The notes beneath the pieces were generated by a model. That model made no database searches. It was not told the origin of the DNA and saw nothing but the letters and a program-made list of their open reading frames with translations. A stretch of DNA of 64,000 bases from Eledone cirrhosa (lineage: Eukaryota). How positions within the stretch are numbered: the stretch's first letter is position 1; each line of letters starts with the position of its first letter. Of the stretch, positions 15,801 through 62,612 are shown piece after piece. The DNA lies in assembly GCA_964016885.1 (NCBI GenBank), contig OZ024765.1, positions 16,740,001-16,804,000 of the forward strand, in the 5' to 3' direction. Both the position numbers and the translations under genes were made by a program.

Positions 15801-17250
15801 CATCATCATCATCATTTTACGTCCGCTTTTCCCTGCTTGCAAGGGTGGGACGGGTCTTATTCAGCACAGCATCTCTCCACTCGTCACGGTCCCTCGTCAT
15901 CTCCACCGTGAGCTTCAATGATCTGAGGTCTGTTCTCACCACCTCCGCCCATGTTTTTCGTGGTCTACCTCTACCACGTCTTCCTTCAACTGGCATTTCC
16001 TGGCACTTCTTCACCCATCGGTCATCCTCCATGCGCATCACATGTCCATACCACCTCAGTCTCCTCTCCCGTACACTACATTCTATCCCTCTCAGACACA
16101 GTTTCTCTCTCAACACATTTATGCTGGGTCGTTCACGCACATTTACACTGCACATCCAACGGAGCATGCTTGCCTCATTTCTCTCCAGCCGTCGCATATC
16201 TTCTGCGGTAGCTGCCCATGTCTCACTACCATGCAGCATCACGCTCCTCACACAGGCATCATACAACCGGCCTTTCGTACGCAGGGAGAAACCCTTCTTC
16301 GTCAACAGAGGAAGCAGCTCCCTAAACTTCTTCCAACCCGTCCTTATTCTAGATACTATGGCCTCGGAACACCCTCCTCCCATGCTAATCTGATCTCCTA
16401 GGTACCGGAAGCTATCCACCACTTCTATAGCGCCCTCTCGCATTTGAAAAATGTGTCTATCAGTGCGACTTCTACTGTCTAATTTCCCTGTACATCTACT
16501 GCATACATAGTTCTCCCTACCTGTTAGTTTGCCTGCTATCCCGCTACATCTCTTGTGTACCCAGGACCTACATTGTGTGCATTTTATAGAATTTATGCCA
16601 GTTCCTTTTCTGCATATCGAACATGGCCATTTCCCTGACGGAATCAGGGTTTTGTCCTCTTTTCTACTCATCAACACTTTTGTCTTAGCTAGATTTACTC
16701 TCAGTCCTCTTGCTTCCAACTCCTGTTTCCATAGCCGGAATTTATTCTCTAGCTCCTCTACTGATTCTGCCATAAGAGCCAGATCGTCAGCATAGAGAAG
16801 TTCCCATGGACAGCCAGTCTTAAACTCCTCTGTTATGGCTTGGAGGACTATAATGAACAAGAGCGGGCTGAGGACCGAACCCTGATGTACTCCTACTTGT
16901 ATCTGGAATTCCTCACTAAACTCCATTCCTACCCTGACTTTACTGAGAGTACCTCTGTACAAAGTTTGCACTGTCCTTACAAGCCATTCCTCAACACCCA
17001 GCTTCCTTAGGGACCACCAGATGACAGATCGGGGTACCCTATCAAAGGCCTTCTCTAGGTCAACAAAGGCTAAGTATAGTGGCTTATTCTTCTCTAAGAA
17101 CCTCTCTTGCATTTGTCTCACCAAGAAGAGGGCATCTGTTGTACTCTTCCCAGGCACAAAACCAAACTGCATCTCATCTAGTTTGACCCTTTCTCTAATT
17201 AGTTGTGCTAAAATCCTTTCTGCCACTTTCATAACCTGATCTATCAGTTT
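15801..17250 (-). mobile_element. Young 5'-truncated RTE LINE with (GAT)n tail
   Basis: The ORF runs to a stop immediately before the (atg)n tail. tttatat is present at both junctions (15794-15800 and 17249-17255) as a possible TSD or microhomology. Confidence 0.95.
15817..17250 (-). CDS. Partial RTE ORF2: reverse transcriptase, PHD-like zinc finger and C-terminal domain (endonuclease missing)
   Basis: QFGF, AFVDLEKAFDRV, GVHQGSVLSPLLF, LLYADDL, FRYLG, RRLRWYGHV and GRGRPRKTW, with no internal stops over about 477 codons. The first ~20 aa of the track ORF come from flanking DNA. Confidence 0.92.
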   Translation of the reverse strand, partial: KLIDQVMKVAERILAQLIRERVKLDEMQFGFVPGKSTTDALFLVRQMQERFLEKNKPLYLAFVDLEKAFDRVPRSVIWWSLRKLGVEEWLVRTVQTLYRGTLSKVRVGMEFSEEFQIQVGVHQGSVLSPLLFIIVLQAITEEFKTGCPWELLYADDLALMAESVEELENKFRLWKQELEARGLRVNLAKTKVLMSRKEDKTLIPSGKWPCSICRKGTGINSIKCTQCRSWVHKRCSGIAGKLTGRENYVCSRCTGKLDSRSRTDRHIFQMREGAIEVVDSFRYLGDQISMGGGCSEAIVSRIRTGWKKFRELLPLLTKKGFSLRTKGRLYDACVRSVMLHGSETWAATAEDMRRLERNEASMLRWMCSVNVRERPSINVLREKLCLRGIECSVRERRLRWYGHVMRMEDDRWVKKCQEMPVEGRRGRGRPRKTWAEVVRTDLRSLKLTVEMTRDRDEWRDAVLNKTRPTLASREKRT

Positions 17251-17308
17251 TATATATATAATTGGTGTTGGGTGCTTAAAGCGTCCGTATGCAGTAGGCC
17301 GTTTGAGC

Positions 17309-17495
17309 AATCAATGTTGCGACGAATGGAATTTATTGGACATATTACAATCGTTTCTCTGGCGACCAGCTTGAGGCACGATCGATTTGATGATCGAACC
17401 CGACTCTGAAAATCGCAAGGTCCTCAAATACGTCTTGATCGCCAGAGACACGATTGTAATATGTCCAATAAATTCCATTCGTCGCAACACTGATT
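17309..17495. repeat. Inverted repeat, ~57-bp arms
   Basis: aatcaatgttgcgacgaatggaatttattggacatattacaatcgtttctctggcga / tcgccagagacacgattgtaatatgtccaataaattccattcgtcgcaacactgatt. Confidence 0.92.
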
Positions 17496-17574
17496 CTCTT
17501 TTTTCTCATATATATATATGTTGATTTAAAACTGATCTATCCACAAGTGCTTTTTAACCTTCATATCATGTCTT

Positions 17575-17651
17575 CATGTTTTATCTGATGAAAACACAAA
17601 TATTATTGCATGATGATATTTGTTTTTGAAATGCGCATAATAAAATACATG
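17575..17651 (+). ncRNA. Minimal type I hammerhead ribozyme, canonical core
   Basis: Stem I catgttttat, CTGATGA (17585-91), ~15-bp stem II aaacacaaatattatt[gcat]gatgatatttgttttt, GAAA (17628-31), palindromic tgcgca, TA cleavage site, stem I' ataaaatacatg. Confidence 0.85.
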
Positions 17652-17677
17652 GAACTCTTTTAACCATCTTTTGTTCT

Positions 17678-17719
<42 letters not shown>

Positions 17720-17870
17720 GATAACAAAATATTGTTATAGATAATCCAGTTAGGGGTTGTGAATACTTATTATTATGGATAGTTTTAGCATTTAGCACTC
17801 AACAAGAGAATTACGTAGATGACGAGTTTATGATTTCACTTGTATTCCTATGTAAGTTTATCTTCGAGTA

Positions 17871-18163
17871 ATATAATTGAAAAAGTGGAGAATAACATGG
17901 TCAACAGTACAAGAAAGAGGATTTATTTGCAGTCTAACAATTGTTTCACTGATAGAGTTGTCTAAAAATTGCTGAACACTAAAAACAGTGCCACTCAATT
18001 TTAAATACGATGTTAACTCTACTAGATCATCAAAATTGAGTGGCACTGCATTTAGTGTTCAGCATTTTTAGACAACTCTATCAGTGAAACAATTGTTAGA
18101 CTGCAAATAAATCCCCTTTTTTTGTACTGTTGACCATGTTATTCTCCACTTTTTCAATTATAT
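17871..18163. repeat. Long inverted repeat, ~132-bp arms and ~29-bp loop
   Basis: Arms 17871-18002 and 18032-18163 are near-perfect reverse complements. Confidence 0.95.
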
Positions 18164-37311: not shown

Positions 37312-37542
37312 TGCAAAAGTTCTATTTAAATTGTTGGGATACATCAAGCAAATATTATTATAACTGATATGGCCTCCAAAAATAACGGTCACCTTTTTGA
37401 AAGGGTACGTCAATATCTATTTGTAAAACTGTTATATATTGTATTTTGTCTGATGAAGGCATACCATGATTTAACTTGGTATCCTTGAAATATATATAAT
37501 AAAATAAATATGGTTTTATAAATATAGTTTCCATTTATTAAT

Positions 37543-46059: not shown

Positions 46060-46292
46060 ATTAAATAAATGGAAACTATATTTATAAAACCATATTTATT
46101 TCATTATATATATTTCAGGGATATCATATTAACAATATGTTATGCCTTCTTCAGACAAAATACAATATAGACAGTTTTATAGATAAACAGATTTATAGAC
46201 AAATAAATATACTCCAAATACTTGTTGAGTGCTTTTATATCAGTTATAAATATTTACTAGTTGTAACCCAACAATTTAAATATAACTTTCCA
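46060..46292 (-). mobile_element. Hammerhead-bearing element, copy 2
   Basis: Homologous to 37312-37545 and flanked by (TA)n on both sides. Confidence 0.8.
46097..46162 (-). ncRNA. Minimal type I hammerhead ribozyme, canonical core
   Basis: tattttgt CTGAAGA aggcataacatatt[gtt]aatatgatatccct GAAA tatata TA atgaaata. Confidence 0.8.
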
Positions 46293-53460: not shown

Positions 53461-53811
53461 TTAAACCTGAGTAAATAAAGCTGATGGTTCTTCATTTAAA
53501 AATACCATTATTGTTATCAATGTTTAAATACATGTATTCATTTTTTGTGACATTTAGTTCTAGGCCAACAGCACACACTGTAAATATGGTTGGCATTAGG
53601 AAGGGAAACCAGGCCAACAGTGTGGGCTTCATATATTATGTGATTTAAATGCTCTTGTGCTTTTTGTATTGAAGACACAATTAAAACAGGGTGTACAGGG
53701 TGCATTTTTCATGTCACTGATGATGCCCAAGGGAAAGGCAATAGCCAATACAGCTTCGCACAGGGACATCACAACATATATATAATATATACACTATATA
53801 TATAATATATA

Positions 53812-62371: not shown

Positions 62372-62612
62372 ATTTCACATTGCTCCAGTTTACTCAGCTG
62401 TAGAAATGAGTTGTGACGTCGCTGGTGCCAAGCTGTATCAGCCATTGCCTTTCCCTTGGACCTCATCAGTGGCGTGGAGAGCGGAGACTGGTATGTAGGG
62501 GTGACTATTGGTCTTTCCACAAACAACCTTGCCTGGACTTGTGCCTAAGAGGAAAACTTTCTAGGTGCAAATCCCATGGTCATTCTTGACCGAAGGGGGG
62601 TCTTTACCCTTT
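62372..62612 (+). mobile_element. SINE family B body with an alternative 3' part
   Basis: atttcacattgctccagtttactcagctgtagaaatgagttgtgacgtcgctggtgccaagctgtatc matches the reverse complement of 54220-54290. Confidence 0.7.

What the first reader, a model, noticed from the sequence alone, without database searches (positions are those of the whole stretch)
17575..17651. Textbook minimal hammerhead with palindromic stem III (tgcgca)
All core nucleotides are intact (CUGAUGA, GAAA, UA), with an 8-10 bp stem I and an unusually long ~15-bp stem II. The six nucleotides between GAAA and the UA site are a perfect palindrome, the feature that lets PLE-type hammerheads cleave as dimers. It sits in a ~170-bp island between TA tracts and is the best candidate for an active ribozyme.
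Basis: partly seen in the sequence, partly recalled or inferred. Interest (0 to 1): 0.75.

Follow-up and report, generated by a model that had tools for sequence, protein, structure and literature searches.

The report
Hammerhead ribozyme in Penelope retroelement stump
The motif is a real hammerhead-type RNA fold in a 170-base broken-off tail of a Penelope-like jumping gene that fills this animal genome with about 42,000 copies; it is predicted to cut itself only when two copies pair, and it belongs to a kind already described.

Summary
Window 17577-17647(+) has every hammerhead part in type-I order: an 8-bp helix I, CUGAUGA, a 16-position helix II, GAAA, the palindrome UGCGCA, and the site AUA with the predicted cut after 17639.

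It is not chance. A core pattern hits 41,650 places in the 3.0-Gb genome, against 2 for the reversed control. The exact 68-nt variant occurs 2,056 times. Subfamilies keep helices II and III through compensatory changes, and core position N7 varies ten times more than G5 or G8.

Full-length copies carry an 820-aa reverse transcriptase plus C-terminal GIY-YIG endonuclease ORF with the marks of the Hydra clade of Penelope-like elements. They insert into (TA)n, with inverted 5'-truncated arms and partial tandems. The window copy is a solo, 5'-truncated, about 170-bp 3' end.

Cleavage itself is untested, this copy has no partner in cis, and 10.1-11.1 is A-U rather than G-C. Rfam does not detect the family.

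The kind is known (Cervera & de la Pena 2014; Craig et al. 2021). This scan has noted similar Penelope hammerheads on other DNA of the same genome, though not this family. I rate it a new member of a known kind, of modest interest.

The parts
17507..17519 (.). (TA)n remnant of the target microsatellite at the 5' junction
   Evidence: Sequence. Homology to other copies starts at 17516.
17520..17687 (+). Solo, 5'-truncated, 'tail-less' copy of the 3' end of a Hydra-type Penelope-like element
   Evidence: 98-100% identical to 52 other scored places of the genome. Corresponds to L051:4892-5059, downstream of the 820-aa ORF.
17577..17584 (+). Helix I, 5' strand
   Evidence: Pairs with 17640-17647. 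In alignment A3 (columns 3-10 with 66-73) 99.4% of cells are paired.
17585..17591 (+). Core strand CUGAUGA (C3-A9)
   Evidence: Genome-wide N7 variants number 3,890 against 413 for G5 and 389 for G8.
17592..17627 (+). Helix II hairpin: 3 bp, C x U mismatch, 12 bp, GCAU loop
   Evidence: present in the MFE. Covariation; 5 of the 6 core-proximal pairs show changes on both sides.
17628..17631 (+). Core strand GAAA (G12-A15.1)
17632..17637 (+). Palindromic helix III hexamer UGCGCA. With A15.1 and U16.1 it makes an 8-nt self-complementary stretch.
   Evidence: It forms an intermolecular 8-bp helix in the dimer MFE. Of 50 distinct copies, 46 carry a fully self-complementary hexamer when G.U is allowed, against 6% of random hexamers.
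17638..17639 (+). U16.1 and A17. The scissile bond is predicted after 17639 (triplet AUA).
   Evidence: Hammerhead numbering applied. Cleavage not tested.
17640..17647 (+). Helix I, 3' strand
17688..17716 (.). (TA)n tract at the 3' junction (target microsatellite or expanded tract)
   Evidence: The same junction is seen in other copies.
37440..37510 (+). Second copy, another subfamily: helix II AGGCAUACCA/UGGUAUCCUU, helix III UAUAUA
46093..46164 (-). Third copy, with core CUGAAGA (N7 = A) and again a different, still paired helix II

Best explanation
Window 17520-17687 is a solo, 5'-truncated copy of the 3' end of a Penelope-like retrotransposon (likely of the Hydra clade) inserted in a (TA)n tract, and it carries that family's type-I hammerhead motif, which is predicted to cut after A17639 only when two copies pair.

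Shown:
- The motif and its three helices are present.
- The family has about 42,000 copies, with helix II and helix III kept by compensatory changes.
- Full-length copies carry an RT plus GIY-YIG ORF upstream of the motif, in the same sense.
- Insertions occur as inverted arms and as partial tandems.

Inferred:
- In a transcript spanning a partial tandem (two sense hammerheads about 3.7 kb apart, as at L073), the two motifs would form a double hammerhead. Helix III would be an 8-bp intermolecular duplex (AUGCGCAU with itself) and helix I would be swapped between the two.
- Each would then cut after AUA, releasing a unit-length RNA with 5'-OH and 2',3'-cyclic phosphate ends. That RNA might serve, linear or circularised, as the template for target-primed reverse transcription.
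- The window copy was probably dead on arrival. It has no ORF, no known promoter and no same-family partner in cis, so by itself it is likely inactive, or active only in trans.
For: Abundance:
- 41,650 pattern hits against 2 for the reversed control.
- 2,056 identical 68-mers against 0 for the control.

Structure, from my own script:
- Of 44 distinct helix II inserts, 3 internally deleted ones were dropped and 41 used.
- In the first 10 positions from the core, 7.85 are paired on average. Shuffles give 3.93 (maximum 4.68 in 500) and slid partners give 2.7-5.6.
- Position 4 is never paired (0 of 41).

Structure, from the count of structure pairs on 44 distinct sequences:
- 97.7% of cells are paired, against 92.3% in shuffles (0 of 500 reach the observed value) and 34-59% when partners are slid.
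- 7 of 18 pairs show changes on both sides.

Core constraint: non-consensus letters at N7 occur in 3,890 copies, against 413 at G5 and 389 at G8. This matches the hammerhead consensus CUGANGA.

Dimer:
- The homodimer MFE is -35.1 kcal/mol against 2 x -11.5 for monomers. It has an intermolecular helix III and a swapped helix I.
- A monomeric 2-bp helix III costs +2.9 kcal/mol (-6.5 against -9.4).

Element:
- L051 has an inverted arm of 881 nt (97.6% identical), an 820-aa ORF, the hammerhead and an 86-nt tail, flanked by (TA)n.
- L073 is a partial tandem with two same-strand hammerheads 3,709 nt apart and an 808-aa open frame between them.
- The ORF shows the marks listed for the Hydra clade in PMC8557442 section 11: RW(T/K), DKT, YRDDG, CxCX5C, and CxxC...CxH.
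- Hammerheads are reported in Hydra-clade elements and other PLEs (PMC8557442 passages and File S2; PMC4209133 passages).
Against: - No cleavage or RNA data: no RNA run was listed and the contigs laid gave only depth.
- Rfam hammerhead models do not score this family, neither at gathering nor at E<=10.
- The monomer fold is no more stable than shuffles (z = -0.39).
- 10.1-11.1 is A-U or G.U in 38 of 41 inserts and G-C in only 2 of 41. PMC4209133 lists G10.1-C11.1 as highly conserved.
- Most copies are solo or head-to-head on opposite strands, and such pairs cannot form a double hammerhead in one transcript. By my own count's listing, the first 100 exact copies include 12 head-to-head pairs, 5 wider (-,+) pairs and only 1 same-strand pair.
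- Published PLE hammerheads cleave poorly in vitro (PMC4209133).
- For the Anolis PLE, hammerhead mutants did not affect insertion in vitro, and no RNA-seq reads ended at the site (PMC11167929).
- Naiad PLEs proliferate without canonical hammerheads (PMC8557442).
Confidence: 0.8

Rival explanations
1. The hammerhead-shaped fold is conserved mainly as a structured recognition or binding site for the element's RT/EN protein, sited near the reverse-transcription start about 46 nt downstream. Self-cleavage would be negligible or dispensable in vivo.
For: - The motif lies 46-48 nt from the tail-less 3' end.
- The Anolis PLE hammerhead needed protein to cleave, and its mutants did not affect insertion in vitro (PMC11167929).
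- The invariant C mismatch in helix II (0 of 41 paired) could be a protein contact.
- 10.1-11.1 is not G-C.
Against: The catalytic core letters are kept with exactly the hammerhead's pattern of freedom: N7 varies ten times more than G5 or G8. The palindromic helix III covaries. A mere binding hairpin would not need these features.
Confidence: 0.12
2. The roughly 170-bp unit is a non-autonomous 'retrozyme' that spreads through small self-cleaved circular RNAs, rather than a truncated end of the coding element.
For: - 9 of 18 sampled places start at the same point, CATATG|TTGATTT.
- There are 2,056 identical copies.
- Animal retrozymes of 170-400 nt with type-I hammerheads are known and are linked to PLEs (PMC7229834; abstract of 10.64898/2026.07.22.740005).
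Against: - No head-to-tail short tandems of this unit were seen in the loci or listings I examined.
- Copy boundaries are not at the cleavage site.
- The unit is collinear with, and 83-98% identical to, the 3' end of coding copies.
- The shared 5' end falls in a CATATG palindrome, which is better explained by microhomology joining.
Confidence: 0.05
3. It is a chance hammerhead look-alike in AT-rich DNA, a C/D-box snoRNA-like sequence, or the inverted end of a MITE or foldback DNA transposon.
For: - Weak Rfam C/D snoRNA matches, E 3.4-7.9.
- The window pattern count is not significant.
- Terminal inverted repeats were seen around some copies.
Against: - 41,650 hits against 2 in the control, and covariation.
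- There is no D box (CUGA) near the 3' end; the only CUGA lies inside CUGAUGA.
- The 'inverted repeats' are inverted 5'-truncated copies of the 3' end of an RT/EN-coding element, which is the published PLE insertion shape.
Confidence: 0.02

Closest known systems
Hammerheads of metazoan Penelope-like elements with a small palindromic helix III (Cervera & de la Pena 2014, PMC4209133; passages read)
   Same: A type-I motif in the terminal repeat or 3' region of a PLE, with a longer than usual helix II and a palindromic helix III that implies dimers. There are many consensus families per genome, full of compensatory changes, and massive copy numbers.
   Different: There is no extra nucleotide between A9 and 10.1. 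10.1-11.1 is A-U or G.U instead of G-C. Helix II is much longer (10-16 positions against 6-8 bp) and has an invariant C mismatch at its 4th position. Helix I is longer (8 bp against 2-5 bp).
Hammerheads listed for Hydra-clade PLEs (Craig et al. 2021, PMC8557442, section 11 and supplementary File S2)
   Same: The host element type matches: RT plus C-terminal GIY-YIG with DKT, an RWK-like motif and CxCX5C, and a (TA)n target. The motif is in sense orientation downstream of the ORF. Helix III has four pairs starting A...U, with H17 = A, U or C.
   Different: The published ones have helix II of 3-7 bp and a helix III loop of 1-3 nt. Here helix II has up to 16 positions and helix III has no loop nucleotide at all. 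This element is 3.7 kb, against 'generally <3 kb'. It is not the listed Hydra-1_oBim motif, whose core is CUGAAGAG and whose helices differ.
Metazoan non-LTR retrozymes (Cervera & de la Pena 2020, PMC7229834, passages; Li, Clavereau & Pollet 2026 preprint, abstract and outline only)
   Same: Type-I hammerhead, low GC content, non-coding short copies, and a likely dependence on PLE enzymes.
   Different: Retrozymes are head-to-tail tandem arrays whose unit is bounded by cleavage sites and which are expressed as circular RNA. Here the copies are solo or head-to-head, and their ends are not at the cleavage site.
Poseidon PLE of Anolis carolinensis, a protein-assisted hammerhead (PMC11167929, passages)
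   Same: A PLE hammerhead whose role in transposition is unclear. Copies come in two forms, with and without a 'tail', matching two reverse-transcription start sites. Both target strands are cut and extended.
   Different: In Anolis the hammerhead overlaps the start of the ORF. Here it lies about 1.1 kb downstream of the stop codon, 46 nt from the tail-less 3' end.

Membership tests
Hammerhead ribozyme, type I | Core strands CUGANGA and GAAA in the right order and position | tested here: met
   17585-17591 and 17628-17631. Genome-wide, N7 is free while G5 and G8 are kept.
Hammerhead ribozyme, type I | Cleavage triplet N-U-H (U16.1, H17 not G) | tested here: met
   A-U-A at 17637-17639.
Hammerhead ribozyme, type I | Helices I and II supported by covariation; open end at helix I | tested here: met
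   helix I 99.4% and helix II 95.5% of cells paired, and 5 of 6 helix II pairs change on both sides. Also.
Hammerhead ribozyme, type I | Helix III closing the three-way junction | tested here: inconclusive
   No hairpin loop is possible for the full palindrome. A 2-bp stem with a GCGC loop costs +2.9 kcal/mol, whereas an 8-bp intermolecular helix forms in the dimer MFE. The palindrome covaries.
Hammerhead ribozyme, type I | G10.1-C11.1 pair (highly conserved, per PMC4209133) | tested here: not met
   A-U here. Across 41 inserts: A-U 24, G.U 14, G-C 2, unpaired 1.
Hammerhead ribozyme, type I | Score at or above the Rfam gathering threshold (RF00163 and related models) | tested here: not met
   No hit in the window, none at E<=10 in 17400-17800, and none in 14 loci of diverse subfamilies. 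RF00163 does hit other places of this genome (18 matches over the cut-off).
Hammerhead ribozyme, type I | Site-specific self-cleavage | not testable with these tools
   No RNA holder was listed, and contigs cannot show RNA ends.
PLE hammerheads (Cervera & de la Pena 2014) | Located in the terminal repeat or 3' region of a Penelope-like element | tested here: met
   L051 and L073: the motif lies in sense orientation downstream of the RT/GIY-YIG ORF and in the upstream partial copy.
PLE hammerheads (Cervera & de la Pena 2014) | Palindromic 15.2-16.2 / loop 3; enlarged helix II; families with compensatory changes | tested here: met
PLE hammerheads (Cervera & de la Pena 2014) | Unpaired nucleotide between A9 and 10.1 | tested here: not met
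   Position 1 after A9 pairs with the base before G12 in 40 of 41 inserts.
Hydra clade of Penelope-like elements (Craig et al. 2021) | [quoted passage not shown] | tested here: met
   The 820-aa ORF has YRDDG and FDI..YxSI RT motifs, then IYE...YFGST...R..H. A relative, P0008, has a weak Pfam GIY-YIG hit (E 0.0028, below the cut-off). Atlas neighbours carry HTH_animal, GIY-YIG and RVT_1 (a lead only). Pfam itself gives no hit for the ORF.
Hydra clade of Penelope-like elements (Craig et al. 2021) | RWK motif; DKG changed to DKT; linker CxCX5C; CxxC and CxH around the conserved E and N | tested here: met
   Alignment A2: RWT here and RWK or RWR in relatives; DKT invariant; CNCRIKNKC; CNLC..EK...N..CLH. 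The features are as listed in section 11 of the paper.
Hydra clade of Penelope-like elements (Craig et al. 2021) | Insertion into (TA)n | tested here: met
   Window copy and L051, L019, L014 and others.
Hydra clade of Penelope-like elements (Craig et al. 2021) | Placement inside the clade on an RT/EN tree; absence of the CCHH motif | not tested
   No reference PLE proteins were held as session sequences, and I did not type sequences from the paper's supplement.
Hydra clade of Penelope-like elements (Craig et al. 2021) | Generally short (<3 kb) | tested here: not met
   The unit is about 3.73 kb (L051:1417-5145) or 3.71 kb (L073). The paper says 'generally'.
Metazoan non-LTR retrozymes | Head-to-tail tandem repeats of 150-450 bp, each with a hammerhead | tested here: not met
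   No short same-strand tandems of this family appear among the 100 places listed, the 100, or the 20 loci. The only sampling limit is that each listing shows the first 100 places.
C/D-box snoRNA | D box CUGA near the 3' end next to a terminal stem | tested here: not met
   The only CUGA in 17575-17660 lies inside CUGAUGA. The Rfam matches have E 3.4-7.9, far below gathering.

The most novel reading that the evidence does not exclude
This would be an undescribed and currently active Hydra-type Penelope lineage, with some 42,000 hammerhead-bearing copies and 2,056 identical 68-mers. Its hammerhead would be a distinct structural subclass: A-U or G.U at 10.1-11.1, an invariant unpaired C at the 4th position of a 10-16-position helix II, an 8-bp helix I and a loop-less palindromic helix III. 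The conserved mismatch sits about where loop 2 sits in canonical type-I hammerheads. It would serve as the tertiary or protein contact that makes cleavage conditional on dimerisation or on the element's own protein.
Probability: 0.25. Interest if true: 0.5.

Novelty: new member of a known kind. Interest (0 to 1): 0.33.

Why it matters
The result shows that a raw-sequence reader can pick out a genuine ribozyme family that the curated Rfam models miss. It also ties that family to its coding element.

The family would be a good natural data set on what a dimer-type hammerhead tolerates. It offers tens of thousands of copies, several subfamilies with compensatory changes, a free N7 against fixed G5 and G8, an invariant helix II mismatch and a non-canonical 10.1-11.1 pair.

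It also provides young full-length copies, partial tandems and head-to-head pairs. With these one could test two open questions: what hammerheads do for Penelope-like elements, and how their two-armed insertions arise.

It does not change what is known in kind.

Tried and rejected
- Rfam: gathering threshold on the whole window, E<=10 on 17400-17800, and gathering on 14 loci of other subfamilies. No hammerhead match in any. The weak C/D snoRNA matches were rejected because there is no D box.
- Single-sequence folding statistics are uninformative: z = -0.39.
- RNA evidence: no RNA holder was listed. Laying Logan contigs of X1, X4, X5 and X6 gave only summed depth, peaking over 17610-17651, and repeat-boundary breaks. 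It gave nothing on expression or RNA ends.
- MITE, foldback or Helitron reading of the inverted ends. I dropped it when L051 showed that the left 'inverted repeat' is an inverted 5'-truncated copy of the 3' end of an RT/EN-coding element.
- Pfam gave no hit on the 354-aa ORF, the 820-aa ORF or 8 of 9 relatives scanned. The ninth, P0008, had a weak GIY-YIG hit below the cut-off. A PDB sequence search gave only noise.
- Earlier scan notes by place and by sequence returned nothing for this family.
- I built no covariance model of the family. Position-anchored counts and the count of structure pairs on a MAFFT alignment were used instead.
- Helix II beyond its 7th position could not be scored column-wise, because the subfamilies differ in register by one base.
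- The supplements of PMC4209133 and the bioRxiv preprint's files were not seen. They may hold similar motifs.

Full report
**The observation**

- Helix I 5' strand: 17577-17584.
- Core CUGAUGA: 17585-17591.
- Helix II hairpin: 17592-17627. It has 3 bp, a C x U mismatch, then 12 bp including two G.U, capped by a GCAU loop.
- GAAA: 17628-17631.
- Palindrome UGCGCA: 17632-17637.
- U16.1 at 17638 and A17 at 17639.
- Helix I 3' strand: 17640-17647.

The unit lies between TA tracts (17507-17519 and 17688-17716). One correction: the pair flanking the core (10.1-11.1) is A-U, not G-C.

On its own the locus is not statistically remarkable.
- The loose core pattern gives 5 window hits against 1.5 expected, and 15 of 100 shuffles reach 5.
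- The MFE of -11.5 kcal/mol has z = -0.39.
- Rfam finds no hammerhead at gathering in the window, nor at E<=10 in 17400-17800. There it returns only weak C/D snoRNA and miRNA noise.

**More than chance**

The 161-nt unit has 53 scored matches in the window's own 3.0-Gb genome, at 98-100% identity, from 506 first-look candidates.

A core pattern (CTGATGA, 15-45 free bases, GAAA, 6 free bases, TAATAAAAT) hits 21,009 + 20,641 places. The reversed control hits 2 + 0. The exact 68-nt variant of the window occurs 1,010 + 1,046 times, against 0 for the control. That points to a very recent burst.

The hits fall into several subfamilies. Their helix II sequences differ, but all keep the same plan: three pairs, an unpaired C opposite C, U or A, then 4-12 further pairs.

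*Position-anchored count.* I had 92 instances, 50 distinct, carrying 44 distinct helix II inserts. I dropped 3 internally deleted inserts and used 41.
- The first ten positions from the core are paired 7.85 times on average.
- Shuffled inserts give 3.93 (maximum 4.68 in 500), and slid partners give 2.7-5.6.
- Position 4 is paired in 0 of 41.
- The helix III hexamers are UAUGUA (17 distinct copies), UGCGCA (16), UAUAUA (11), and UACGCA, UAUGCA, UGUGCA and UACGUA (6 together).
- 46 of the 50 are fully self-complementary with A15.1 and U16.1 when G.U is allowed. About 6% of random hexamers of the same composition are.

*Count on a MAFFT alignment.* I aligned 44 of the 57 distinct sequences. The 13 left out were picked by hand before counting. 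Three are internally deleted forms and ten are near-duplicates. Three of those ten (L061, L071, L017) carry extra mismatches.
- 97.7% of cells are paired, against 92.3% in shuffles (0 of 500 reach it) and 34-59% with slid partners.
- 7 of 18 pairs change on both sides: 5 of 6 in helix II and 2 of 4 in helix III.
- Caveats: the sequences are related. Also, the pattern fixed GAAA, UA and most of the helix I 3' strand, so helix I adds little.

*Core constraint.* With the same flanks, copies with a non-consensus letter number 3,890 at N7, 413 at G5 and 389 at G8. The N7 variants are largely whole subfamilies (CUGACGA, CUGAAGA, CUGAGGA). This tenfold contrast matches the hammerhead consensus CUGANGA.

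**What carries the motif**

Flanks of the copies first looked like terminal inverted repeats. Between one outward-facing pair lies a 354-aa ORF with a GIY-YIG-like motif.

A full-length copy, L051, resolves the structure. In order it has:
- (TA)n;
- an inverted arm of 881 nt that is the reverse complement (97.6% identical) of the element's own 3' end;
- a poly(A) stretch;
- an 820-aa ORF;
- about 1.1 kb of 3' region with the hammerhead in sense orientation;
- an 86-nt 'tail';
- (AT)n.

The inverted arm lacks the tail. L052 holds a similar copy with the frame split into 179 + 582 aa. L073 is a partial tandem: a 5'-truncated 3' part with its hammerhead, followed after 3 nt by a whole unit with an 808-aa open frame and a second hammerhead. 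The two motifs are on the same strand, 3,709 nt apart.

The ORF gets no Pfam or PDB hit. It does align with about 700-aa relatives, and it shows these motifs:
- RT-type motifs (FDI..YxSI, YRDDG);
- RW(T/K) and DKT;
- a CxCX5C linker;
- a GIY-YIG-type block ending in CxxC..E..N..CxH.

These are the marks that Craig et al. 2021 list for their Hydra clade of C-terminal-endonuclease Penelope-like elements. That paper also reports (TA)n targeting and readily detected hammerheads for the clade (PMC8557442, section 11 read in full). Protein-atlas neighbours carry HTH_animal, GIY-YIG and RVT_1 (a lead only). I did not place the ORF on a tree.

The same paper (passages) describes the insertion shapes seen here as typical of PLEs: 5' truncation, partial tandems forming pseudo-LTRs, an adjacent inverted 5'-truncated copy, and a tail at one end only.

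Hence window 17520-17687 is a solo, tail-less, heavily 5'-truncated copy.

Two more copies of other subfamilies lie in the window, at 37440-37510(+) and 46093-46164(-). The latter has core CUGAAGA.

**How it likely works**

*Energies.*
- The hammerhead fold without helix III scores -9.4 kcal/mol.
- Adding a 2-bp helix III with a GCGC loop raises it to -6.5 kcal/mol.
- The monomer MFE is -11.5 kcal/mol.
- The homodimer MFE is -35.1 kcal/mol.

The homodimer MFE is exactly a double hammerhead. Helix III is an intermolecular 8-bp duplex of AUGCGCAU with itself, helix I is swapped between the two strands, and helix II stays intramolecular. The second window copy behaves the same way.

*Inference.* Master copies arranged as partial tandems would be transcribed across two sense motifs. 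The motifs would pair, and each would cut after AUA. This would release a unit-length RNA, as proposed for PLEs in 2014 (PMC4209133) and for retrozymes (PMC7229834).

*Against a necessary role.*
- Published PLE hammerheads cleave poorly in vitro.
- In the Anolis element, cleavage needed protein, mutants did not affect insertion in vitro, and no RNA-seq ends were found at the site (PMC11167929).
- Naiads thrive without canonical hammerheads.
- In this genome most copies are solo or head-to-head on opposite strands. By my own count's listing, the first 100 exact copies include 12 (-,+) pairs 142-242 bp apart, 5 (-,+) pairs 1.1-2.8 kb apart, 1 same-strand pair 3.5 kb apart, and no (+,-) pair within 5 kb.

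The window copy has no same-family partner in cis. The nearest sense copy is 20 kb away and has a different helix III. I therefore expect the window copy to be inert unless it is transcribed and paired in trans.

**Comparison with what is known**

The kind is known: hammerheads in the repeats of Penelope-like elements, including variants with a small palindromic helix III (PMC4209133), and hammerheads in Hydra-clade elements (PMC8557442, File S2). In File S2 helix II is 3-7 bp and helix III is 3-4 bp with a 1-3 nt loop.

This family differs in several ways:
- helix II has up to 16 positions, with an invariant C mismatch;
- 10.1-11.1 is A-U or G.U;
- there is no extra base after A9;
- helix I is 8 bp;
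- helix III has no loop.

Rfam models miss this family, although RF00163 finds 18 other places in the genome over its cut-off.

A literature search for hammerhead together with octopus, cephalopod or Penelope returned only PMC8557442 as relevant. I make no claim about the host species.

Earlier notes of this scan describe Penelope-type hammerheads and retrozymes on other DNA of the same genome. Look-ups by this unit's DNA and by this ORF found nothing.

**Verdict**

This is a new member of a known kind. Cleavage is untested and the biological role of the motif remains open. Interest is modest.

Noticed in passing
L001-L020, e.g. L008/L009, L010/L011, L013; window 17516-17522: Half of the sampled places (9 of 18) start at the same point, inside a CATATG palindrome. 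Head-to-head pairs meet there (…AACATATGTT…). This fits two cDNAs primed from both ends of a (TA)n break and joined through the self-complementary CATATG or TA microhomology. The link to two-strand cleavage and extension is my inference from PMC11167929.
   Followed up: partly
Helix II position 4 (window 17595 opposite 17624) and all subfamilies: There is an invariant unpaired C on the 5' strand, opposite C, U or A (0 of 41 paired). It sits about where loop 2 sits in canonical type-I hammerheads. It may be a tertiary or protein contact.
   Followed up: partly
L051:5060-5145; L019; L073: An 86-nt 'tail' (ending …CTCACCTCCTAC) is present at the 3' end of some copies and absent from others, including the window copy and the inverted arm of L051. 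This is like the optional tail of PLEs, but longer than the published 30-40 bp.
   Followed up: partly
window 17309-17368 / 17436-17495: A 60-nt inverted repeat, 95% complementary with 67 nt between the arms, lies directly upstream of the unit. It abuts the end of a 497-aa reverse-transcriptase-like ORF (15817-17310, minus strand, with YADDLAL). It is not part of the hammerhead element.
   Followed up: no
window 17871-18163: Nested inverted repeats (arms of 46, 59 and 38 nt, 92-98% complementary), looking like a MITE, lie just downstream.
   Followed up: no
window 53717-53757(+) and 62430-62469(-): Two further matches to the loose core pattern belong to another repeat, present in opposite orientations. 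I saw no hammerhead geometry in them by eye and did not analyse them.
   Followed up: no
whole window: The window is dominated by (TA)n, (CA)n and related microsatellites. Most of the 70 ORFs of 150 aa or more are translated repeats. These tracts are the preferred targets of this element family.
   Followed up: no
G000, e.g. L074-L079: Rfam Hammerhead_1 (RF00163) finds 18 places over its cut-off among the 74 scored. The genome therefore also holds canonical type-I hammerheads of other families.
   Followed up: no
runs X5 and X6 (organisms B and C): Contigs from runs labelled as two other organisms also carry parts of the unit (2 and 25 contigs). The family may be shared with relatives of the host.
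   Followed up: no
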